A stretch of 64,000 nt of DNA from an uncultured Gammaproteobacteria bacterium (GCA_964504535.1 CAZDED010000005.1:9411-73410), one strand, 5' to 3'; numbered from the stretch's first letter, positions 11,720 to 52,660 are shown. Notes: generated by a model from the letters alone, not told the origin. Translations and numbers: made by a program.

Positions 11720-12052
11720 ATTTGAGTATATTTATACCATCATAAGGTTGATTTGTCAATATATTATGCCACCATATAGTGTCAAAATATGGAAATAAAG
11801 CTGATATAAGGCTGTTTTTGTACAGGGATAGAAGATTTGAAAATATATATTATTGTCAAGAGTGTTGAACATTATATAACTATAAGATAAAATGTACCAC
11901 TGTTTTAAAGCAGTCAAGCAATAGCTGTTTGATGACCCTTGAAGCAGCGTACATTAACAATCTGCTGAAAAATACTCCTTTCGGAGACTTTTCCCATCAC
12001 AAATATGGTGGGCGAAATCTCCGACAAGGAGAATACAATGAGGAGGGGCGTT

Positions 12053-12820
12053 ATGTCCCAGGCATTTCCTATCCCTGCATCCATCCTTCAGCCCATTCCT
12101 GATCCCGTCCCGGAAGGCTACTTCCAGCGGTGGCAGGTCTACGTCGATGGGCAAGAGGCAACGCCTCAGCACATCACGATGGTGAATGTGGGGCAAGGAC
12201 TCCAGCTCGACTGGGGCTCTCACCCCGATGGCAAATGGTCGCAGTTCTGTTACCGCGAGAACCATGGAGGTGGCGTTGTCATCATTCCGCATGCAGTCAT
12301 GCCCGACGGGCGTGTCTACATCGGCGTCATCGACGCCAGGCGCCCTTTCCGCGATCCGCGGCCAGGGGCTGTCTTCATGGAGTTGCCGCGCGGTATGCGT
12401 GACAAGCTGGAATCGGCCACACAGGCCGCTCAGCGCGAAACGGAAGAAGAGACCGGCCATTCGGTTTCCGAAGGGTCGTATGTCGTGCTCGATGGTGATG
12501 GGGCCAACCCCAATTCCACCTTCTGGCTCACGTATGATCACAAGAACGAGACGCCGGATGGCGTCAGGTTCGTGACCGTCGAAGTCCCGGCCTCATCGCT
12601 CGTTCCCTCAAGGGACGGCGAAATGGTTTTGGACACCGCCGGACCCGTGGATTCCTTTGAAGGAATCGAGAAGTGTAGGTTCGTGCCCCTTACTATCCGT
12701 GAAACCGCGGGTGAAGGGGACATGTTCCTGCTCAGTGGAGCTTTCAAGCTCCAAGCGTACCTCATCGGACACTACGCCAACGTTTCCTTTCGGGATGGCG
12801 TGATGGTCGTGTCCAACTAG
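12053..12820 (+). CDS. Nudix hydrolase (ADP-ribose pyrophosphatase-like), encoded in GC-rich island A
   Basis: Nudix box GMRDKLESATQAAQRETEEETGH. High GC3 codon usage. AGGAGG sits 6 nt before the ATG at 12053; the ORF is open from 12005. Confidence 0.7.
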   Translation: MSQAFPIPASILQPIPDPVPEGYFQRWQVYVDGQEATPQHITMVNVGQGLQLDWGSHPDGKWSQFCYRENHGGGVVIIPHAVMPDGRVYIGVIDARRPFRDPRPGAVFMELPRGMRDKLESATQAAQRETEEETGHSVSEGSYVVLDGDGANPNSTFWLTYDHKNETPDGVRFVTVEVPASSLVPSRDGEMVLDTAGPVDSFEGIEKCRFVPLTIRETAGEGDMFLLSGAFKLQAYLIGHYANVSFRDGVMVVSN

Positions 12821-12838
12821 TCATTCAGCAGATCTCAG

Positions 12839-12860
12839 CCGGGTACCTCACGGTACCCGG
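12839..12860 (+). terminator. GC-rich hairpin ccgggtacc-tcac-ggtacccgg 18 nt after the island A stop codon (weak U-tract)
   Basis: Perfect 9-bp inverted repeat. Confidence 0.4.
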
Positions 12861-13106
12861 CACCATTTAAAACCTAATCAGCAGGGTTGGTAAATATTGG
12901 TACTACATCAATTCCAAGGATACAAGAAAGAGTTTGCCAGTTCCCATTCAAATATGTCTTATATATCGATATATCATGCAATAGTGGCTTATGTTTTTGA
13001 GTTAGTTGAAGCTTGCCGTGGACTAGTTGAAGGGTTAAAATAAGGAGTCTTAGGGTAGTAGCTTAGTGCGAATGAAATGAGCACCAAACTTACTTTTTGA
13101 CAATAT

Positions 13107-15178: not shown

Positions 15179-15378
15179 AAAAAGATAATAAGTTCAATAT
15201 TATTTACTCAAGCAATGTACGGTAGGCTTATACGAAGCTAATTTTTATCTTATAGTTTTGATATTCGTTTCAATTTCTGTTAAAATATATCTATGCAAAC
15301 ATGATAAATCTAAGCTCAAAAATGCTGCTTAGAGGTGTCAAATTTGCCATTTTTAGCACTTTTACATTGCGGAAATTA

Positions 15379-15426
15379 GTGGTTACCACCTTACACATAA
15401 GATGTTGTGTTTGAGGTGGTAACCAT
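15379..15426. repeat. long hairpin at the left edge of GC-rich island B (stem ggttaccacc/ggtggtaacc, 24-nt loop with an internal acaca/tgtgt repeat)
   Basis: Perfect 10-bp inverted repeat read directly. Confidence 0.5.
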
Positions 15427-15447
15427 AGAAAGAGGAGGTCACACCAA

Positions 15448-15833
15448 ATTGTAGGGGCAACCCTGAATCCTCAGCGTGTCGAGGAGATTTTTCTTGACTG
15501 CCTCTTCAAGCGTGGAGAGGACACGACCAGCCACATCAAGGCCGAGGGTATCACCTCGGTGGTCGGGTTTCATCCCAACCGCCTCGAAACCCATAAGGCA
15601 GAGATCAAGGCTCTCTTGGACGATTGCCTGATGAGTTCAAGCTGACAGGCGGCGGCGGAATGTCATTCCTGAAAGCCTGCAACGACAAGCACGGCAACCA
15701 ATGGACCGGTCTCCATTAGCACATGGAGCAACTGTTCCAACTCGGAATTGCCATCGGCAAGGTGCAAACCCTTCTCCCTCGGGAGATGTGGTCGGCACTA
15801 CCGGGTGCAGTGCCGTACTACGCAATCATGTAG
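15448..15833 (+). pseudogene. disrupted GC-rich ORF: three collinear segments (…HKAEIKALLDDC / …LTGGGGMSFLKACNDKHGNQWTGLH* / HMEQLFQLGIAIGKVQTLLPREMWSALPGAVPYYAIM*) separated by one frameshift (~15600-15645) and one in-frame TAG (15717)
   Basis: Protein-like, high-GC3 translation continues across the frameshift and stop. AGGAGG at 15433 has no ATG downstream. Confidence 0.5.
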
Positions 15834-15888
15834 TCAGCCCAACCCTCACATCGTCAAGACAACGGTTCACAACCAGAGAAAGGAAGCC

Positions 15889-16254
15889 ATGTCACTTACG
15901 ATCACCGCTGATTTCCTCCAACGATTTGTAGGAGGACAGTTGGAGTATGAGAACACAATGGGGCATTATCGGTTTCGCGGCGAGATCGAACGTGTCTGGA
16001 TAGAGGGCAGCAAAAATGCAACAATGTACGTCCTCTTGAAGTGGCTTGCCGAGATGGGTGAGGACTCCAGATGGCACGGTGCCGTTGACACCCTCGATTA
16101 CTCGGTCGGCCTCGCCGAAACGAGTTTCAGTGAGGCTGACGACAGCACTGTCCATTATGTCTCAACGCTCATTCAAGAAAAGGGGACCTTTTTCCCTCCA
16201 GAAGGAAGTAGACTGGATCCGTTGGAGGTGGAAGGGCTCCAGCTTCCCTCCTAA
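15889..16254 (+). CDS. hypothetical protein (121 aa) of GC-rich island B
   Basis: ATG preceded by AGGAAG. High GC3. The longer ORF from 15748 runs through the pseudogene tail. Confidence 0.55.
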   Translation: MSLTITADFLQRFVGGQLEYENTMGHYRFRGEIERVWIEGSKNATMYVLLKWLAEMGEDSRWHGAVDTLDYSVGLAETSFSEADDSTVHYVSTLIQEKGTFFPPEGSRLDPLEVEGLQLPS

Positions 16255-16293
16255 CAAGTTCCGCATCACGAATCACTCGGGCAAAAGTGCACT

Positions 16294-16327
16294 GGGCCGC
16301 GACACGTTCGCGGCCCTTTTGCTTTTG
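16294..16327 (+). terminator. Rho-independent terminator gggccgcg-acacgtt-cgcggccc followed by ttttgcttttg
   Basis: Perfect 8-bp GC stem plus a U-tract. Confidence 0.7.
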
Positions 16328-16403
16328 TAAAGTAAAACAATATTTTCCGATATATTCGCTCGCGGGTTCAAGCTTGACCTTAACATATATATTTGAAATA
16401 CTG

Positions 16404-17198: not shown

Positions 17199-17365
17199 TT
17201 CGCTAAAACATCATTTAGTTAAAAAACTTTTACACTGGATTAAGCCGAGAATTTCCTCAAGCCGCGTAAACTATCTTATAGTTTGACATTTGACCCCAAA
17301 TTTAGTATAATTCTTGTTCACCGATATGGTGAAAGTGCCTTCGCGATATGTGAAAGGAGAACAAT

Positions 17366-17896
17366 ATGCGATCAGGCGAATGGACGCAAAGCATGGCACT
17401 TGCTATGTCAGCGGCCGTCGGAGTCCTAACCATAACAGGTGGGACATATCCCTCGGAAGTCATCAAATACTTCCGCGGAATTACTCCTAGTCCTCAGCAC
17501 GTTTCACGGAAGCTGGGGTTGAAAACACACGAAGAATACTTCCAGTTGACCTTCGAGTCAATCGGAGATGTAGTCTTTCCTGTGATTATTGAGGTCGCTC
17601 TTTTGTGCGAAGATTGTAACCTCCACACCCATAACTGGGGAACATCCTTACCCAACTGTTACATGTTCCTGCAAATAAGTAAGTACTTACAAAGGTACTA
17701 TTGGAATAGAAATTATTATATGAATCAACAAGTAATAGAAGAACAGATCACAACAACTGAAGTTTCATCTCCTCTGCAAGCTATGAGAGCTACCAAACAA
17801 GCTCTAAATCCCCAAGTTAAGACTGAACACCCACAAAAAGTATTTGAAAAAAGAAAAAGATTTTTCGTTTTAACCAAGTCGTTTGGTATATCCTAG
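17366..17896 (+). CDS. hypothetical protein (176 aa)
   Basis: Strong AAAGGAG site before the ATG. The 5' half is moderately GC-rich. Confidence 0.45.
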   Translation: MRSGEWTQSMALAMSAAVGVLTITGGTYPSEVIKYFRGITPSPQHVSRKLGLKTHEEYFQLTFESIGDVVFPVIIEVALLCEDCNLHTHNWGTSLPNCYMFLQISKYLQRYYWNRNYYMNQQVIEEQITTTEVSSPLQAMRATKQALNPQVKTEHPQKVFEKRKRFFVLTKSFGIS

Positions 17897-23011: not shown

Positions 23012-23085
23012 TCTCCATTTTTTAAGGGTACGAAATGATTTCTGCCTATTTTAGATATTTTTTTTCCAGCTTGATAGAACTTATG

Positions 23086-23117
23086 AAAAAGACCCCGAGC
23101 ATGCTCGGGGTCTTTGG
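23086..23117. terminator. bidirectional terminator: perfect 22-nt palindrome gaccccgagcatgctcggggtc flanked by AAAAA and TTTGG
   Basis: Sits between the convergent + gene (ends 23011) and the - strand island C operon (ends 23126). Confidence 0.7.
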
Positions 23118-23125
23118 AATTGAGA

Positions 23126-23425
23126 TTACTGGGACGAGTATGTCCCCTTGTCGTCAGCAAGCGTGACGCACGCCGTCTGTTTGATCCACTCACGGTCGTG
23201 ATGGGCGTACTGTTGGCATACCATTGTTGTGAGAATGGAACGATCACCTGGTACCTTGAAGTACATTCGGGCACGTTCTTCAAAGCTAGCAGTGACGCTT
23301 GCGATGATCTGCTCTCTCGTGACACCCCCAGGAAGGGGGTCAACCAGCGTGTAGTTGAGCGTGAGCATTCCAAGGTTCGTTGGCACGAGAACTTGGAGAA
23401 CTTCGCTTGGTGAGGTAGTGCTCAT
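23126..23425 (-). CDS. hypothetical protein (99 aa), second gene of GC-rich island C operon
   Basis: High GC3 on the minus strand. It starts 17 nt after the upstream stop. Confidence 0.5.
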   Translation of the reverse strand: MSTTSPSEVLQVLVPTNLGMLTLNYTLVDPLPGGVTREQIIASVTASFEERARMYFKVPGDRSILTTMVCQQYAHHDREWIKQTACVTLADDKGTYSSQ

Positions 23426-23442
23426 GACGTTACCATGAGAGG

Positions 23443-23796
23443 CTACCCTGCGGTTTCTTGAGGCATCGCCTCATTGGTCATCAGGTGTTCCTGGATGAGC
23501 TTCGCAAGTTCACGAAGGCCTTCTTCGGTCCGGGCAACAACTTCCACGCCAAGCCAGTTCAAGGACTTTGGGGTCCGTGCCAGCTTGGAGCGCGCCGCCA
23601 GGGGGAGGGCTCCTACGAGAGCCCAGGCTTCCTCCGAACGGAGGAGCTTGTGGCCAGTATGGGTCATGAAAGCGAATGCTTTCCAGTCCCGGTCGAAAGA
23701 TGAGGTGACGACGATGTGAGCAAGTCCAACGTCCTTCAGTTCCTTGGCGGCGAATTGCTTCCACCGCGTGTCTTGAAGGTCAATCCTTCTGATCAA
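23443..23796 (-). CDS. hypothetical protein (117 aa), first gene of GC-rich island C operon
   Basis: GC3 is about 70% on the minus strand. The overlapping + strand ORFs lack this bias. Confidence 0.5.
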   Translation of the reverse strand: MIRRIDLQDTRWKQFAAKELKDVGLAHIVVTSSFDRDWKAFAFMTHTGHKLLRSEEAWALVGALPLAARSKLARTPKSLNWLGVEVVARTEEGLRELAKLIQEHLMTNEAMPQETAG

Positions 23797-24118
23797 GCTA
23801 TGTCTCCGGTGTGAAGTGTCTGTTCCATTGCCGTTGGGGTACGAAACAGCTTCTCAAAGACATGTAAATCTTCAAAAAGCTATTTCGTACGGTAAGAAAT
23901 GAAGTAATCTCAATTGTTAATGTACATCATGAAATCCACGTAAGGCGCGCATGTGCCTCAAAGGATTTATGAGGAAAACTATTATACCTGCAATAGCCTT
24001 GATTGTGCAATTGCTAAGCATTGTGCTACTTGACTGTGAGTTTTGAGATACCGTACACTGAAATCAGTTTATAGTTGTAAAACTAGTAGCTGAGGACTAA
24101 TAACTCGTCTCTGCCCAT

Positions 24119-29282: not shown

Positions 29283-29296
29283 ATTTTTAGAAAAGT

Positions 29297-29322
29297 CCCC
29301 GGGCGCACTACAGCGCCCGAGG
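29297..29322. terminator. GC hairpin cccgggcgc-actaca-gcgcccg(a)gg between convergent gdhA and the island D gene; U-tract present on the minus-strand side
   Basis: Read directly; 7 bp plus an extension. Confidence 0.55.
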
Positions 29323-29345
29323 ACAGAACCAGATTTAGCTGGTGG

Positions 29346-29600
29346 CTAAAGCCGAGTGGCGAGGCACGTTGTCGTACGTTGAACGCCACCGATCGTCTGG
29401 ATGCTGCAGGTGACGATTTGGCCGACGCTGTCCAGGTCGTTGTGCGTGATCTTCACGATCACATCGTACGGACCGGTCACGGTGTTGATCTCGGAAAGCT
29501 GTCCGCTGTGGCCGTTTTGGGCAATCTCGGAAAGGCGCGTAGCAACGGCCTTTGACTTGCCGACTTCCGTCTCGATCAGAACGTAAGCGTTAACCGCCAT
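29346..29600 (-). CDS. stand-alone Lrp/AsnC C-terminal ligand-binding (RAM) domain protein, GC-rich island D
   Basis: VNAYVLIETEVGKSKAVATRLSEI...TGPYDVIVKITHNDLDSVGQIV is the canonical AsnC_trans_reg fold sequence. GGAGG lies 8 nt before the ATG. Confidence 0.7.
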   Translation of the reverse strand: MAVNAYVLIETEVGKSKAVATRLSEIAQNGHSGQLSEINTVTGPYDVIVKITHNDLDSVGQIVTCSIQTIGGVQRTTTCLATRL

Positions 29601-29637
29601 GACTCAAGCCTCCTGTCCCGCGAAGCGGGAACGACTA

Positions 29638-29657
29638 TGCACGGAATTATTCCGTGC
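29638..29657. promoter_or_regulatory. perfect 19-bp palindrome gcacggaat-t-attccgtgc in the 5' region of the island D gene (candidate operator); a second palindrome ccgcgcactgcgcgg lies at 29730..29744
   Basis: Read directly; positioned 40-60 nt upstream of the minus-strand start. Confidence 0.35.
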
Positions 29658-29964
29658 GGTCTTTGTGGATTGTGTTTTATGCACCTCCAGCTTGATCTGT
29701 TGTTAATGCGAACAAAGACGTAAACTCTCCCGCGCACTGCGCGGAAGGCCACATCTCAATTCACTGATGGTAATTATAGGTCTATAGTATATAAAATGCA
29801 ATGATCTGTGATTAAAATTGCGTTCTTAAAAAAATAGAAAAAAAGAAACTATCCCTAAAATTAGGAAGGGATTTTTGAAAAAAACGCGAGTGTTCCTTCG
29901 GAACCAAAGGCTTCATCATCGGGGTGAGCAAAAACGGCACCAACGAACAGTTTCATGTTTTTAT

Positions 29965-32925: not shown

Positions 32926-33096
32926 ATTATTATACAGAGTTGAGGCGGAATTGTAAAGAGACTGTTGAGTATAGTCTCTTTGCCCATTCTCAACCCAGTG
33001 GGTTTCGAAGGGTAAAGATGTCCCGGGCCTGAATTGATTCTAGACTTTTGTGAAATTATCTATTAATCTTGTACATATGGGCAAGATAAGCGAAGC

Positions 33097-35823: not shown

Positions 35824-36335
35824 AGGGTGGTGCCGGAAAGCAGGACTATCACCCCATGATGCCCTAGGGCATCAAGTGAGTCCCACGATGGGGACATCAA
35901 CTTTCCGGCGTTTAAAACACACTGCGTTATTGGGATCTTAGCGCCTCTGCGCCGTGGCTGTCGTCTTCAGCGGCTGATCGGGAACCCCGTCACCGTTGTA
36001 AGGCCTGAAGCCATTCGACCGCTGCTGCTTGCGATCGGCAGCTGCCTGTTCGCGGCTTGTTTCCGTTTCTTCTCCCGGTCCGAGTGATTCACGAAGAGAC
36101 CCTCATCGACCGACCGTTCTGGGCCCTCCGATGAGAGACGGTGGCGGTGGGAACGTATGTGCTAACGTTCCCATGCATCCGGTCTTGTAGGACCTTCCGC
36201 TTGTTGCGCCATGCCTTGAAGGAGTTGCTACTCCTCCACGTATCTTTCGCTTTGCTCAAGTACCTTTACCTCTCCTGGAGTGGATTGATCCCGTTTTACG
36301 CAGTGTAGTTTTTCAATGATCTTAAAAGCAGAACC
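35824..36335. other. GC-rich non-coding island E: no ORF of 60 aa or more in any frame, dense hairpins (candidate structured ncRNA or decayed foreign DNA)
   Basis: An 82-nt nested structure lies at 35825..35906 (gccggaaag...ctttccggc enclosing gatgcc-ctag-ggcatc and ccccat/atgggg). Further perfect stems: gggaacgt/acgttccc, ctcatcg/cgatgag, ggcagctgcc. Confidence 0.3.
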
Positions 36336-36430
36336 GCTCTTACGCTAAGTGCACTAGCACTAGCATAAGTTAAGAATCCGCTCTCGTGATGCAGATATTA
36401 TACACCTGCATAGTATAAATACTAGATTTC

Positions 36431-48587: not shown

Positions 48588-48767
48588 TTTTTCCCATTTT
48601 GTGCTATAATAACTTGTTTTTGCCCACCTTTTGGCGTGTTGCATGTCAAAATCAACGGGCTTAGCACGTTAACAAGTTGCTTGATATTTTTTAAGGTTGC
48701 GGCTTTCTGCTAATCTATGGTTGGTAGGAAGCCGTAACCTATATTCTGCGGCAAGGAGACAACAGGG

Positions 48768-49556
48768 ATGACCTACCTTGAGGCTATCACCACGACACTC
48801 AAAAGCGCAACATCTCGCTGGGCAGCGGTAGCGCCCGCTTTCCTCAAGCTGCCCGAAGGGCAGGTCGTCGTCGTCCACGTGCTCATCCGCGGCGAACAGT
48901 TCGTTGGACGAGTATCAATGCCGGCGGAGATCACCAGCCAGGCGCGTGCCATCCAGTCGCTTGGCATTCAGACCCTTGGGTTCTACCGCTTCGATGCGGG
49001 CCTCTGGGAGATGGCTTGGAAATTGCTCCAAGCCATCGACGAGTCCACGAAGAACGCACCCAAGCTGTTCGAAGAAGAGCTTCTCAAGAGGCTGCTTTCA
49101 GAGGGCGTAGTCAGGGATGACCTGATCACGCCGGTTCCCGACGATATGGAGGAGTTCTTCCTTCATCGCGTCGGGACGGAGCAGGCCATCGTTATGGCCT
49201 CCGCCGAGGAGGACATCTTCAACGTTCCCGAGAATCCGCTCGGCCGCCTCATCGCGCCCAAGGGGACAGTGGCCATGTATTGGCCAGCCATCGAGAAGGA
49301 GCGAGATGACGTGCGCAAAGCGCGCGAACAGGACCCCATCCTCGGCACCCCGTTTGTAGTAATCCATCACCACTCCTCGCAAGAGGAGACGGACGAGCGG
49401 ACTAGGAGCCGTTTCCGCCGCAACCGCGTCACCACCGAGACCGAGCCGGTTCCCGGAATGGGAGCATCGGAGAGCAAGGATCGTGGTGAGCCTTCCTACG
49501 TTCCGGCCGGTCTCGCAAGGACCCGCCGCGGTCAAGCCGGTCAAGACCTCGGCTAA
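48768..49556 (+). CDS. hypothetical protein (262 aa), GC-rich island F
   Basis: AAGGAG before the ATG. High GC3. Followed by a strong terminator. Confidence 0.6.
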   Translation: MTYLEAITTTLKSATSRWAAVAPAFLKLPEGQVVVVHVLIRGEQFVGRVSMPAEITSQARAIQSLGIQTLGFYRFDAGLWEMAWKLLQAIDESTKNAPKLFEEELLKRLLSEGVVRDDLITPVPDDMEEFFLHRVGTEQAIVMASAEEDIFNVPENPLGRLIAPKGTVAMYWPAIEKERDDVRKAREQDPILGTPFVVIHHHSSQEETDERTRSRFRRNRVTTETEPVPGMGASESKDRGEPSYVPAGLARTRRGQAGQDLG

Positions 49557-49585
49557 CAAGCCGACGCACATCAAGCAACTCCCGT

Positions 49586-49620
49586 CCCCCGATTGCAGAA
49601 ACGCAACCGGGGGACTTTTC
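49586..49620 (+). terminator. Rho-independent terminator cccccgattgc-agaaac-gcaaccggggg + acttttcc
   Basis: 11-bp stem with one mismatch, plus a U-tract. Confidence 0.7.
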
Positions 49621-50469: not shown

Positions 50470-50888
50470 AGAACTATCAATTAGCATTTCTCATAATTAT
50501 TCTTTGTAGTGTTGCTCTAATGCTTGAAACAACCGTTATAAATTTCCCTGCGGTTTTTTTGATCGGTTCAGTTTTGGCTATTTTAGTAAAACGTACACCA
50601 ATGCTTATTGGAGTCTTTATTCTCAGTTTTATTATAGATGCACTGCGAGTATCGAATTTTGGGATTACAGCACTTTTTATACTGGGCACGCTTTCAATAG
50701 TCTTGCTTTATGAGAAATATTCTGGCTCAGATGACTTACTGGTAGCGTCTTTTGTCATTGCAGTTATGTTATTTTTGTATGCTCATTTTCTACTATACTC
50801 AACAACATTGATTGTTATATTTTTTGGGCTTTCATTTTTAACTCTATATATCGTTAGCATTTTAAAAAAGAAAGGAAAATTATTATGA
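50466..50888 (+). CDS. mreD: rod shape-determining protein MreD-like membrane protein
   Basis: 140 aa with 4-5 TM helices, overlapping mreC by 4 nt and preceding PBP2. Confidence 0.5.
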   Translation: MKNYQLAFLIIILCSVALMLETTVINFPAVFLIGSVLAILVKRTPMLIGVFILSFIIDALRVSNFGITALFILGTLSIVLLYEKYSGSDDLLVASFVIAVMLFLYAHFLLYSTTLIVIFFGLSFLTLYIVSILKKKGKLL

Positions 50889-52660
50889 AGAGAAGACACA
50901 GACCTATAGGCCATGCATTTTCAGATCATGTGTTTGAAGAACATTTGAAAAGAAAACGTGGATTTTCAGGTTCAAGACTTGAAGGGTTTGGTAGATTTAT
51001 TCCTCTTCTTATTCTTTCTCTTGTTTTTGCACTGCTTGCAATGCGTCTTTTTACATTACAGGTAGTGCGAGCTTCATATTACTCAAGATTATCTGATGCA
51101 AATAGAATACGTACGGAGTTAATAACGGCACCCCGTGGCATAATTTTTGACAGGAATGGGGAGGCATTGGTGCGCAACATTCCAGCATTTGGGACTATAA
51201 AAAATAATAAAGTAGAGTGGTTGGATAGGGACGTTGCTTTGAAGATGGCATCCAATGGAACAAGCGTTCTTGCAATTGTAAAAAGAGATTATTTATATAA
51301 AGACATTTTCTCACACGTCATAGGATATGTAGGACAAGTTAATAGTGATGAATTATTACTTCCTGATTTTAGTGATTATGGAATATCAGATTTTACGGGG
51401 AGGATGGGTCTTGAGGAACAGTATGAAAAATTTCTTCATGGGCAAAATGGAAAACAATTATATGAAGTGAATGCAAAAGGTGAGCGTATACGGCTTTTGG
51501 GTGAAGAGGAGGCAAGACAAGGAGCGGTTCTCAAAACCACTCTTGATGTCGGTCTTCAGAAGGCTGCAGCAAAAGCGATGGAAAAGATAGATAAGGGCGC
51601 TGTTGTAGTTACCGACCCGCGAGATGGATCTGTGATGGCTCTTTATTCAAAACCATCTTTTGATCCTAATTTATTTACAAGAGAACCATCATACAAACCT
51701 GAAGGAGCATATCAGAAGAAAGAAGATATTTTGCTTGATGATGAAAAATTTCCTCTTCTTGACCGAGTTATTGCGGGAGTATATCCACCCGGTTCCACTT
51801 TCAAAATTGTTACTTCCCTTGCTGCACTTTCATCAAATGCCATAAAGCCGGAGACAGAATTTGAAGACACCGGAATACTATCTATTGGAGGAAGTAATTT
51901 CGGTACGTGGAATTACTTGGAAACAGGAAGAAAAGAAGGATTTATGAATGTTGAGCGTGCGCTTGTCCGATCAAATGACATCTTCTTTTACGATGCAGCC
52001 ATGAAAACGGGGATTGATACATTGTCATCATGGTCAAAAAAATTAGGTCTTGGGGAAAAAACAGGTATTGATATACCGGGAGAAGTAAAAGGCACGGTTC
52101 CAAATCCTGCTTGGAAAAAAGAAGAGATTGGGGAGCAGTGGTATCTTGGTGACACAATCAACATGAGTATCGGACAAGGCTTTTTGGAAACGACACCAAT
52201 GCAGGTTAACCTATACACACAATTGGTTGCTAATGGAGGTGAGTTGATAAAACCACACTTGTTGTTTGGGGATGTAAGAATTATTAAAAAAGATTTTATA
52301 GCGAAAGAAAATATTGATGTTGTAAAAAATGGCATGAGGGGTGCTTGTGAGCCAGGTGGTACAGGATACCCACTATTTGGATTTAAAGTAAAAAATGAGC
52401 GATTGAAAATTGATGACCTTGATTATGTAAGAGATGCATCAGCAGGAGCTAATTTTGTACATGTCACAATGGGTTGTAAGACCGGAACTTCTGAGGCACA
52501 TGGAGACAATGCGAAGTCTCATGCATGGTTTACCGTATTTGCTCCTTTCTATAATCCGGAAATTGCAATAACGGTTCTTGCAGAAAATGCAGGACAGGGT
52601 AGTGATATTGCAGCCCCCGTTGCTCGCGATATCTTAAAGGAATATTTTGAGAAAAAATAG
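50885..52660 (+). CDS. mrdA: penicillin-binding protein 2 (class B transpeptidase)
   Basis: STFK, SxN (SNDIFF) and KTGT boxes. Confidence 0.85.
   Translation: MKRRHRPIGHAFSDHVFEEHLKRKRGFSGSRLEGFGRFIPLLILSLVFALLAMRLFTLQVVRASYYSRLSDANRIRTELITAPRGIIFDRNGEALVRNIPAFGTIKNNKVEWLDRDVALKMASNGTSVLAIVKRDYLYKDIFSHVIGYVGQVNSDELLLPDFSDYGISDFTGRMGLEEQYEKFLHGQNGKQLYEVNAKGERIRLLGEEEARQGAVLKTTLDVGLQKAAAKAMEKIDKGAVVVTDPRDGSVMALYSKPSFDPNLFTREPSYKPEGAYQKKEDILLDDEKFPLLDRVIAGVYPPGSTFKIVTSLAALSSNAIKPETEFEDTGILSIGGSNFGTWNYLETGRKEGFMNVERALVRSNDIFFYDAAMKTGIDTLSSWSKKLGLGEKTGIDIPGEVKGTVPNPAWKKEEIGEQWYLGDTINMSIGQGFLETTPMQVNLYTQLVANGGELIKPHLLFGDVRIIKKDFIAKENIDVVKNGMRGACEPGGTGYPLFGFKVKNERLKIDDLDYVRDASAGANFVHVTMGCKTGTSEAHGDNAKSHAWFTVFAPFYNPEIAITVLAENAGQGSDIAAPVARDILKEYFEKK

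What the first reader, a model, noticed from the sequence alone, without database searches (positions are those of the whole stretch)
15379..16335. Island B: hairpin-bounded GC-rich block holding a decayed ORF (frameshift + in-frame TAG) and an intact 121-aa gene
The left edge is a 10-bp-stem hairpin (ggttaccacc...ggtggtaacc). The next ~390 nt translate as one protein-like, high-GC3 sequence across three collinear pieces, only if a frameshift near 15600-15645 and an amber codon at 15717 are ignored. This is a typical recently inactivated acquired gene. An intact ORF with AGGAAG follows (15889..16254), then a textbook terminator (16294..16327). Either decay in progress, or programmed recoding, which is less likely.
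Basis: seen in the sequence. Interest (0 to 1): 0.6.

Follow-up and report, generated by a model that had tools for sequence, protein, structure and literature searches.

The report
Dead gene in acquired GC-rich cassette
A small GC-rich two-gene unit, picked up by an AT-rich ultra-small (Patescibacteria) bacterium, has just lost its first gene to three mutations while the second stays intact; this is ordinary gene decay, but the unit is one of six look-alike hairpin-led cassettes in the window, a design I found no description of.

Summary
Its preferred reading, a recently inactivated acquired gene, is supported.

**ORF1 (15448-15833)** is a full-length member of a widespread ~128-aa family (phrog_26039). 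The search found 510 intact homologues, mostly in Patescibacteria and also in jumbo phages. The window copy carries three lesions:
- ATT where the ATG start is expected.
- A 1-nt deletion (GAC GA[G] TTG).
- CAG>TAG at 15717.

**Strain comparison.** Eight independent metagenome contigs from near-identical strains all carry the TAG and the ATT. Five of them still have the G. The frameshift is therefore a real, recent strain polymorphism, not an assembly error or programmed recoding. TAG is a normal stop codon in this genome.

**ORF2 (121 aa)** is intact and belongs to a real but unnamed small-protein family.

**The "left-edge hairpin"** is a 21-bp stem-loop that forms only on the sense strand, so it works as single-stranded RNA in the mRNA leader. 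It is homologous to the leader hairpin of the closest intact ORF1 homologue.

**Wider pattern.** Six GC-rich islands in the window share one design: long 5' hairpin, Shine-Dalgarno site, ORF(s), with a hairpin terminator seen in five. Three also share a leader box.

**Verdict.** The pseudogene is ordinary. The recurring cassette design is moderately interesting, and its function is unknown.

The parts
15258..15286 (+). Candidate sigma-70-type promoter (TTGATA-17-TAAAAT, TG-extended) in AT-rich DNA upstream of the leader
   Evidence: Consensus scan only, 10 of 12 matches. Not tested experimentally.
15295..15347 (+). First, weaker leader stem-loop just downstream of the predicted transcription start
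   Evidence: Inverted repeat I3, 21-nt arms, 76% complementary. Inferred.
15358..15372 (+). Degenerate copy of the leader box (cacttTTACATTgcgg). Islands A, C and E carry ACRTTAACAAK at the same relative position.
   Evidence: and the leader print-out. The match in island B is weak and was made by eye.
15379..15426 (+). Long 5'-UTR hairpin: 21 pairs, 3 of them G.U, 4-nt loop
   Evidence: dG -31.9 kcal/mol, z = -4.68. Folds to -29.4 on the sense strand against -24.8 on the antisense strand, with G.U pairs only on the sense strand. Homologous to the leader hairpin of the closest intact homologue in L066.
15430..15439 (+). Shine-Dalgarno site of ORF1 (AAGAGGAGGT)
   Evidence: Read directly from the sequence. 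It lies 9 nt before ATT 15448.
15448..15833 (+). ORF1 pseudogene, phrog_26039 family. ATT replaces the start codon at 15448-15450. A 1-nt deletion lies between 15623 and 15624. An in-frame TAG is at 15717-15719. The native stop TAG is at 15831-15833.
15878..15886 (+). Ribosome-binding site of ORF2 (GAAAGGAAG)
   Evidence: Read directly from the sequence.
15889..16254 (+). ORF2, an intact 121-aa gene of an unnamed small-protein family with the motif GGQLE..YRGEI..WLA..FFPP.GS.LDP..V.GL
   Evidence: One homologue at 45% identity, P0122. 141 representative clusters at E <= 1e-3. All invariant and nearly invariant family residues are retained. AlphaFold2 model with pLDDT 95.5.
16294..16327 (+). 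Intrinsic terminator: 9-bp G+C stem followed by a T-run

Best explanation
Island B is a self-contained, horizontally acquired two-gene transcription unit, similar in design to a phage 'moron'. It sits in a variable intergenic slot of an AT-rich Patescibacteria chromosome (Microgenomates, near Levybacteria).

Layout: candidate promoter, structured leader ending in a 21-bp RNA hairpin, Shine-Dalgarno site, ORF1, ORF2, intrinsic terminator.

ORF1 belongs to a widespread phage and Patescibacteria accessory family of unknown function (phrog_26039). It is a young pseudogene. An ATG>ATT start loss and a CAG>TAG nonsense mutation are present in every sampled strain. A 1-nt deletion has been added in the sub-lineage that the window comes from.

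ORF2 belongs to a second unnamed family with a predicted all-beta fold. It is intact and presumably still expressed from the same transcript through its own ribosome-binding site.

The hairpin acts as RNA in the 5' UTR. Most likely it shields the mRNA 5' region or is a double-strand-specific (RNase III-type) processing site.

What is shown: the anatomy, the homology, the polymorphism and the strand-specific folding.
What is inferred: the promoter, the role of the hairpin, and expression of ORF2.
For: ORF1 is one gene and is broken here only:
- One family covers all three pieces.
- 510 intact homologues at up to 79% identity.
- The G allele is present in 5 contigs and the deletion allele in the window plus 3 contigs. 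TAG and ATT are present in all.
- TAG is a normal stop in this genome.
- There is no excess of replacements at conserved columns.

Acquired origin:
- GC3 is 0.59-0.71 in the island against 0.23-0.36 in six of the seven host genes measured.
- The syntenic relative L063 (RNase HII 80% identical) has an unrelated 235-aa gene in this slot. Homology resumes at window 16364, just past the terminator.
- ORF1 is 73% identical to a Saccharibacteria MAG copy (L014) and a Patescibacteria-group copy (L013). The window's RNase HII is only 52-57% identical to the homologues that carry a Levybacteria name.
- The family sits in different neighbourhoods in every genome examined.
- It is richer in GC than its flanks in about 30 Patescibacteria genomes.

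Hairpin acts as RNA and travels with the gene:
- G.U pairs occur on the sense strand only (B 3/0, C 5/0, E 5/0; 47 against 11 over 13 hairpins).
- It is homologous to the L066 leader hairpin.
- In the Saccharibacteria leaders of the same family, 10 of 23 stem pairs show compensatory double changes.
- The orthologous island-C hairpins show an A-U to G-C change and a wobble-to-Watson-Crick change.

ORF2 is a real gene.
Against: - No clean empty site was found. The slot is a variable hot spot, so neither the insertion event nor its exact left boundary is demonstrated.
- GC-richness is not proof of recent arrival. Island C is equally GC-rich but orthologous in relatives at 75-85% nucleotide identity.
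- ATT can occasionally serve as a start codon, so the 'start loss' is the weakest of the three lesions.
- ORF2 being intact while ORF1 took all three lesions is not statistically compelling (about 0.14 by chance). ORF2 shows no polymorphism, so selection on it cannot be tested.
- The promoter is a consensus match only.
- The stabiliser or processing role of the hairpin is untested.
- No function is known for either protein. There are no Pfam, NCBIfam, PADLOC or PDB matches.
Confidence: 0.8

Rival explanations
1. Programmed recoding: ORF1 is functional, and a full-length protein is made by a -1 ribosomal frameshift near 15623 together with read-through or reassignment of UAG 15717.
For: The conceptual fused protein is well conserved. 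TAG falls at a position that is Q in most homologues. A second family member, L018, also has an in-frame TAG at a Q position.
Against: - Near-identical strains carry the unshifted allele, so the frameshift is a fresh mutation.
- The site GGACGATTGCC has no X XXY YYZ slippery motif.
- TAG ends 12 of 53 long ORFs and ORF1 itself.
- No CUA-anticodon tRNA is present in the window.
- The canonical start codon is also missing.
- C>T changes that turn CAG into TAG are the expected decay route for a GC-rich gene in an AT-biased genome.
Confidence: 0.03
2. Sequencing or assembly artefact: the frameshift and/or the TAG are errors, and the gene is really intact.
For: Single-base indels are a common assembly error, and the window is probably from a metagenome-assembled genome.
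Against: - The deletion allele is reproduced in 3 separate Logan assemblies (SRR12487035, SRR12487045, SRR12487046).
- The G allele is reproduced in 5 ENA assemblies.
- TAG and ATT are present in all 8.
- The indel is not in a homopolymer.
Confidence: 0.03
3. The hairpin is a DNA-level recombination site, such as an integron attC-like site or an IS200/IS605-type end. Under this reading the islands are cassettes moved as single-stranded DNA by an enzyme encoded elsewhere.
For: - Six islands with unrelated cargo share the same hairpin-first design.
- The Saccharibacteria hairpins have a conserved base and a variable but still paired distal stem, as attC sites do.
- The islands occupy variable slots.
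- Single-stranded DNA also tolerates G.T pairs, so the strand asymmetry does not exclude it.
Against: - The hairpin lies 5' of the ORF, after a promoter-like site, and folds on the sense strand. attC sites lie 3' of the ORF and use the bottom strand.
- There are no RYYYAAC / GTTRRRY boxes, no extrahelical bases and no cassette array.
- There are no target-site duplications or terminal inverted repeats.
- The island ORFs match no recombinase family.
- The hairpin is conserved with compensatory changes in orthologous, vertically inherited island C. That fits a function in place rather than a one-off recombination scar.
Confidence: 0.08
4. Island B is not foreign. It is an old, vertically inherited pair of genes whose GC-richness is maintained by selection, for example for mRNA structure, and ORF1 simply became dispensable.
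For: Island C keeps 0.52-0.58 GC and conserved proteins in relatives whose flanks are 75-90% identical. The leader box is shared among islands within this genome.
Against: - Island B is absent from the syntenic slot of L063.
- ORF1 is more similar to copies in Saccharibacteria (73%) than housekeeping proteins are to same-group relatives.
- ORF1 and ORF2 occur separately, and with other partners, elsewhere.
Confidence: 0.1

Closest known systems
Phage 'morons' (autonomous promoter-gene-terminator units inserted between conserved genes; named from my own knowledge of the lambdoid-phage literature)
   Same: A small self-contained unit with its own terminator and a candidate promoter. It lies between genes that are conserved in relatives. 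Its base composition differs from its surroundings. Its cargo is of accessory or unknown function. ORF1 homologues sit in blocks of small accessory genes in jumbo phages.
   Different: It lies in a bacterial (Patescibacteria) chromosome, not a prophage. It is richer in GC than the host. It is always preceded by a 21-25 bp RNA hairpin. The adjacency of the flanking genes in relatives was not shown, because the slot holds other cargo.
phrog_26039 (PHROGs family of unknown function)
   Same: The fused ORF1 matches the full profile at E = 1.7e-35. It shares 33-66% identity with proteins of Variovorax, Stenotrophomonas, Klebsiella, Xanthomonas and Caulobacter phages.
   Different: The window copy is a pseudogene. 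In Patescibacteria chromosomes the gene is compositionally foreign, whereas in phage contigs its GC content matches the phage.
5'-UTR stabiliser stem-loops and RNase III processing hairpins (for example the ompA leader, T7 R-sites and the lambda N leader; from my own knowledge)
   Same: A long, nearly perfect stem of about two helical turns, a few nucleotides upstream of the Shine-Dalgarno site, that folds on the sense strand.
   Different: No cleavage or half-life data exist. The function is inferred only.
Integron gene cassettes and attC sites
   Same: Small ORF cassettes associated with an imperfect palindrome whose base is conserved and whose centre varies.
   Different: The position (5' rather than 3' of the ORF), the folding strand, the lack of core-site boxes and extrahelical bases, the dispersed rather than arrayed arrangement, and the lack of an integrase within the island (the rest of the window was not scanned for recombinases).

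Membership tests
phrog_26039 / ~128-aa ORF1 family | Full-length profile match | tested here: met
   E = 1.7e-35, profile positions 6-127 of 129. 510 homologues.
phrog_26039 / ~128-aa ORF1 family | Conserved residues retained | tested here: met
   58 of 60 columns conserved at 90% or more are retained. The deviations are G>A and M>V in the LPGGMPY motif.
phrog_26039 / ~128-aa ORF1 family | Uninterrupted reading frame with a start codon, that is, a functional member | tested here: not met
   ATT at the start position, a 1-nt deletion and an in-frame TAG.
ORF2 family (unnamed, ~120 aa) | Full-length homology and the motif GGQLE / YRGEI / WLA / FFPP.GS.LDP | tested here: met
   141 representative clusters at E <= 1e-3. 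All 3 invariant and 12 nearly invariant residues are present.
Intrinsic (Rho-independent) terminator | G+C-rich stem followed by a T-run | tested here: met
   9-bp stem with 8 G-C pairs, then TTTTGCTTTT.
Programmed -1 ribosomal frameshift | Slippery heptamer X XXY YYZ at the shift site | tested here: not met
   The site reads GGACGATTGCC. The unshifted allele exists in sister strains.
Stop-codon reassignment (TAG read as Gln) | TAG not used as a terminator in the genome's genes | tested here: not met
   12 of 53 long ORFs end in TAG, including UppS and ORF1 itself.
Stop-codon reassignment (TAG read as Gln) | Suppressor tRNA with a CUA anticodon | tested here: inconclusive
   None among the 5 tRNAs of the window. 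The rest of the genome was not available.
Integron cassette / attC | R''/R' core boxes (RYYYAAC ... GTTRRRY) and extrahelical bases | tested here: not met
   The arms read GGTTACCACC ... GGTGGTAACC, with a continuous stem.
Integron cassette / attC | Palindrome 3' of the ORF that folds on the bottom strand | tested here: not met
   The hairpin is 5' of ORF1 and folds better on the sense strand.
Integron cassette / attC | IntI integrase nearby or in the genome | not tested
   Only the island ORFs and a few neighbouring ORFs were scanned.
IS200/IS605-type element | Encodes TnpA and/or TnpB | tested here: not met
   The island ORFs have no Pfam hit.
Moron-like unit | Own terminator and atypical base composition | tested here: met
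Moron-like unit | Own promoter | tested here: inconclusive
   Consensus match at 15258-15286 only.
Moron-like unit | Flanking genes adjacent in relatives that lack it | tested here: inconclusive
   L063 lacks island B but carries a different gene in the slot.
RNase III site / 5' stabiliser hairpin | Cleavage, or an effect on mRNA half-life | not testable with these tools
   Only the structure, the strand bias and covariation were shown.

The most novel reading that the evidence does not exclude
Patescibacteria share a pool of small, GC-rich accessory genes: the ORF1 family, the ORF2 family, a Nudix protein, a stand-alone RAM-domain protein and others. These genes recombine in different combinations. 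Each is expressed from a common type of leader: a promoter, in some cases a short conserved box (ACRTTAACAAK), and then a 21-25 bp sense-strand RNA hairpin. They keep their foreign composition over long periods. That would imply a dedicated processing, stability or regulatory system, or a cassette-capture mechanism, specific to this gene class. Island B would then be one decaying member of it.
Probability: 0.2. Interest if true: 0.6.

Novelty: new member of a known kind. Interest (0 to 1): 0.35.

Why it matters
On its own the finding is a textbook snapshot of accessory-gene decay. Its one unusual merit is that the order of the lesions can be read from natural strain variation.

The context is of wider interest. 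Ultra-small Patescibacteria genomes are thought to be shaped by gene exchange, mostly among themselves (PMC12455944). This window shows what some of that traffic looks like: sub-kilobase, compositionally foreign units with a stereotyped, structured mRNA leader.

If the leader hairpin and box prove to be a shared expression or processing signal, they would give two things:
- a handle for finding this accessory gene pool computationally;
- a way to study post-transcriptional control in organisms that cannot yet be manipulated genetically.

Tried and rejected
Searches that found no match:
- Rfam, whole window at gathering thresholds and islands B and D at E <= 1. Only tRNAs were found; nothing on the hairpins or leaders.
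- Pfam, NCBIfam and PADLOC for ORF1 and ORF2. PHROGs matches ORF1 only.
- PDB sequence profiles.
- Foldseek against PDB and BFVD with confident AlphaFold2 models (pLDDT 88.6 and 95.5). There were no significant matches. The weak resemblances were winged-helix-like for ORF1 and PH/EVH1- or YojF-like for ORF2.

Empty-site search:
- The metagenome scan with RNase HII found nothing.
- The protein search gave syntenic relatives L063 and L065. The island-B slot there holds other genes, so no clean empty site exists.

Other checks:
- The exact-protein look-up of GrpB found only the same species.
- No target-site duplications or terminal inverted repeats flank island B.
- The ORF2 alignment was too divergent for a viral-contig scan.

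Ideas considered and dropped:
- attC or IS200-type hairpin ends.
- A sigma-70 promoter formed by the TTAACA box. No acceptable -10 element lies at a 16-18 nt spacing.
- TAG recoding.
- Programmed frameshifting.

Full report
**Observation**

The window is AT-rich (0.39 GC). Positions 15400-16300 reach 0.52-0.56 GC. An AAGAGGAGGT ribosome-binding site follows at 15430-15439.

From 15448 the sequence translates as one protein-like chain in three collinear pieces:
- 15448-15623.
- 15624-15716, after a one-base frame change.
- 15720-15830, after an in-frame TAG at 15717-15719. The native stop is TAG at 15831-15833.

A 121-aa ORF (15889-16254) with its own ribosome-binding site follows. Then comes a terminator, a 9-bp G+C stem at 16294-16316 plus a T-run.

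One lesion was missed. There is no ATG, GTG or TTG at the start. ATT occupies the position, 9 nt after AGGAGG, where homologues have ATG.

**The three pieces are one gene, and it is intact elsewhere**

The fused 128-aa translation matches PHROG family phrog_26039 (function unknown) over its whole length, E = 1.7e-35. A search of 5.8 billion proteins returned 510 homologues. The 120 listed are 124-144 aa long and 64-79% identical. Those that carry names are from Patescibacteria (Collierbacteria, 'Patescibacteria group'). A genome scan added Saccharibacteria, WWE3, Nomurabacteria, Paceibacterota and Woesebacteria, and more distant copies in other phyla.

In the alignment, the TAG column is Q in most sequences. 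The frameshift falls in the conserved L-D-E-L-P-D-E-F stretch. Homologues also occur in large phages of Variovorax (66% identity), Stenotrophomonas, Klebsiella, Salmonella, Xanthomonas and Caulobacter, inside runs of small hypothetical genes.

**The lesions are real, and they are ordered in time**

An exact-sequence look-up of ORF2 and of the upstream GrpB gene recovered eight further contigs of the same species from independent assemblies.
- Three Logan contigs are 100% identical to the window, including the deletion.
- Five ENA contigs are 99.6-99.9% identical overall and read GAC GAG TTG CCT. They have the G that the window lacks between 15623 and 15624.
- All eight still carry TAG at 15717 and ATT at 15448.

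The nonsense and start-codon changes therefore predate the split of these strains, and the frameshift is a later addition in one sub-lineage. This is decay in progress, not an assembly artefact.

Inactivation is recent. The copy deviates at only 2 of 60 columns conserved at 90% or more, against a family mean of 1.7. Each piece keeps GC3 of 0.68-0.71 in its own frame.

**Recoding is not supported**

- The shift site GGACGATTGCC has no slippery heptamer.
- The unshifted allele exists in sister strains.
- TAG terminates 12 of 53 long ORFs in the window, including ORF1 itself.
- None of the five tRNAs in the window is a suppressor.

A Saccharibacteria copy (L018) also has an in-frame TAG, at an otherwise invariant Q. 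I read this as the same decay route, CAG>TAG by C>T change in a GC-rich gene under AT-biased mutation, and not as a recoding signal.

**ORF2**

The word-indexed search found only one homologue, P0122 at 45% identity, which has a nearly identical C-terminal motif GTFFPPEGSRLDP..VEGLQL. The exhaustive HMMER search found 141 representative clusters at E <= 1e-3, mostly 105-130 aa proteins matched over almost their full length.

The window protein keeps all invariant and nearly invariant residues. AlphaFold2 gives a confident model, all-beta with an N-terminal helix, pLDDT 95.5. Neither ORF2 nor ORF1 (pLDDT 88.6) has a significant match in Pfam, NCBIfam, PADLOC, PDB sequences or Foldseek libraries. 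The function of both remains unknown.

**Host and origin**

RNase HII homologues that carry names point to Candidatus Levybacteria at 52-57% identity. Two syntenic relatives were recovered, L063 (RNase HII 80% identical) and L065 (75%).
- L063 lacks island B. Homology with the window stops upstream and resumes at 16364, just past the terminator. An unrelated 235-aa gene on the opposite strand fills the slot.
- The slot is therefore a variable hot spot, and no clean empty site exists.
- ORF1 is 73% identical to copies in a Saccharibacteria MAG and in an unclassified Patescibacteria MAG. That is more than housekeeping proteins share with same-group relatives.
- ORF1 lies in a different neighbourhood in every genome inspected.

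Together with the composition (GC3 0.59-0.71 against 0.23-0.36 in six of the seven host genes measured), this supports horizontal acquisition.

**What the hairpin is**

It folds much better on the sense strand, because its non-Watson-Crick pairs are G.U there and would be A.C on the other strand. Island B has 3 G.U pairs against 0, C has 5 against 0 and E has 5 against 0. Over 13 hairpins the count is 47 against 11. It therefore acts as a single strand, most simply as RNA in the mRNA leader.

It travels with the gene. The closest intact homologue (P0001, locus L066) has a homologous hairpin, GGTAGGTACCAC...TTTGAGGTGGTAC, at the same place.

In Saccharibacteria, the same gene family is preceded by a 23-pair hairpin. 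Its basal 12 pairs are conserved (CACAAGATGAG / CTCATCTTGTG), and its distal pairs covary; 10 pairs show double compensatory changes among 7 sequences.

I infer a 5'-UTR stabiliser or an RNase III-type processing site. This is not tested. Rfam has no matching family.

**Island B is one of six**

A whole-window fold scan found seven hairpins with 21 or more pairs that lie outside the GC-rich coding sequences. Six of them sit on the coding strand at the 5' edge of a GC-rich island:

| Island | Hairpin position | Cargo |
|---|---|---|
| A | 11975 | Nudix protein |
| B | 15379 | ORF1 pseudogene and ORF2 |
| C | 23892, minus strand | Two small ORFs |
| D | 36384, minus strand | Only broken ORFs |
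| E | 48694 | 262-aa ORF |
| F | 29764, minus strand | 84-aa Lrp/AsnC ligand-binding domain protein |

Islands A, C and E also carry the box ACRTTAACAAK 14-21 nt upstream of the hairpin (3 matches, 0.14 expected). The exact 11-mer ACATTAACAAT occurs only at A and C (0.07 expected). The same box precedes the hairpin in L066. The pattern was defined after the matches had been seen, so these figures are indicative only. Island B has only a degenerate copy.

**A caution about GC content**

Island C is orthologous in L063 (85% nucleotide identity; proteins 96% and 93% identical) and partly in L065. It remains at 0.52-0.58 GC there, and its promoter, leader and hairpin are conserved with compensatory changes. 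GC-richness in these islands is therefore long-lived and does not by itself date an acquisition.

In viral contigs the ORF1 gene's GC tracks that of the phage, over a range of 0.30-0.69. In about 30 Patescibacteria chromosomes the gene is richer in GC than its flanks. I cannot tell whether this reflects repeated transfer from a GC-rich reservoir or selection on composition.

**Gene-pool links**

- In L066 the ORF1 homologue is followed by a Nudix gene 32% identical to that of island A.
- In L033 an ORF2-family gene and an ORF1-family gene lie 2.3 kb apart, each in its own GC-rich patch.
- In L067 the ORF1-family gene shares a GC-rich block with three other small ORFs.

**Verdict**

The pseudogene is ordinary. 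The recurring hairpin-led, GC-rich cassette design, with its shared leader box, was not found in Rfam or in three full-text literature searches. It is the part worth following up.

Noticed in passing
window 11951-12870 (+): Island A. Leader box ACATTAACAAT (11951-61), a 22-pair hairpin (11975-12030), a GC-rich Nudix-domain ORF (12053-12820, GC 0.59) and a terminator-like hairpin (12839-12866). It is absent from relative L063, where homology resumes at 12853. A 32%-identical Nudix gene follows the ORF1 homologue in L066.
   Followed up: partly
window 23082-24010 (- strand): Island C. Promoter TGCACA-17-TATAAT, leader box, a 23-pair hairpin (23839-23892), two GC-rich ORFs (23443-23796 and 23126-23425) and a terminator (23093-23116). 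It is orthologous in relatives L063 (85% nucleotide identity) and L065, and still GC-rich there, so the composition persists over long periods.
   Followed up: partly
window 35826-36400 (- strand): Island D. A TATAAT element, a long hairpin (36325-36384), about 450 nt of 0.5-0.6 GC sequence with only short broken ORFs, and a complex terminator-like structure (35829-35915). It is either another decayed cassette or a non-coding RNA. There is no Rfam hit.
   Followed up: partly
window 48590-49620 (+): Island E. Box variant ACGTTAACAAG (48666-76), a 22-pair hairpin with 5 G.U pairs (48694-48741), a 262-aa GC-rich ORF with no family match (48768-49556) and a terminator-like hairpin (49591-49612). 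Its leader shares GTCAAAnT..TTAGCACnTTnACA with the leader of island B.
   Followed up: partly
window 29290-29765 (- strand): Island F. A 25-pair hairpin (29705-29764) precedes an 84-aa GC-rich ORF (29346-29600) that is a stand-alone Lrp/AsnC ligand-binding (RAM) domain (Pfam E = 5.9e-8).
   Followed up: partly
window 32939-32994 (+): The seventh long hairpin (22 pairs). It lies between the divergent SecE/NusG and GalU genes and is not attached to a GC-rich island. Its role is unknown.
   Followed up: no
L018 1607-1993: A Saccharibacteria MAG copy of the ORF1 family also has an in-frame TAG, at the otherwise invariant Q96 (LHQTMG*LFQLG). I read this as an independent CAG>TAG pseudogenisation.
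   Followed up: partly
L025, L029, L031, L035, L037, L040, L045 (about -130 to -40 from the ATG): A conserved leader of about 150 nt lies upstream of the Saccharibacteria ORF1-family genes. It runs: promoter, small hairpin, TTTGACAAGC motif, 23-pair hairpin with a conserved base and covarying tip, second small hairpin, Shine-Dalgarno site. L036 has the same promoter and TTTGACAAGC motif but lacks the long-hairpin module.
   Followed up: partly
window 50899-50991 (+): ARAGORN calls a 93-nt tRNA-Phe (GAA) that Rfam's tRNA model does not report. It overlaps a 591-aa ORF (50885-52660). It may be a false positive or an unusual or intron-bearing tRNA.
   Followed up: no
window 17350-17650 (+): A local GC rise to 0.48 at the start of the 176-aa ORF (17366-17896). 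It was not examined and could hide a structured RNA.
   Followed up: no
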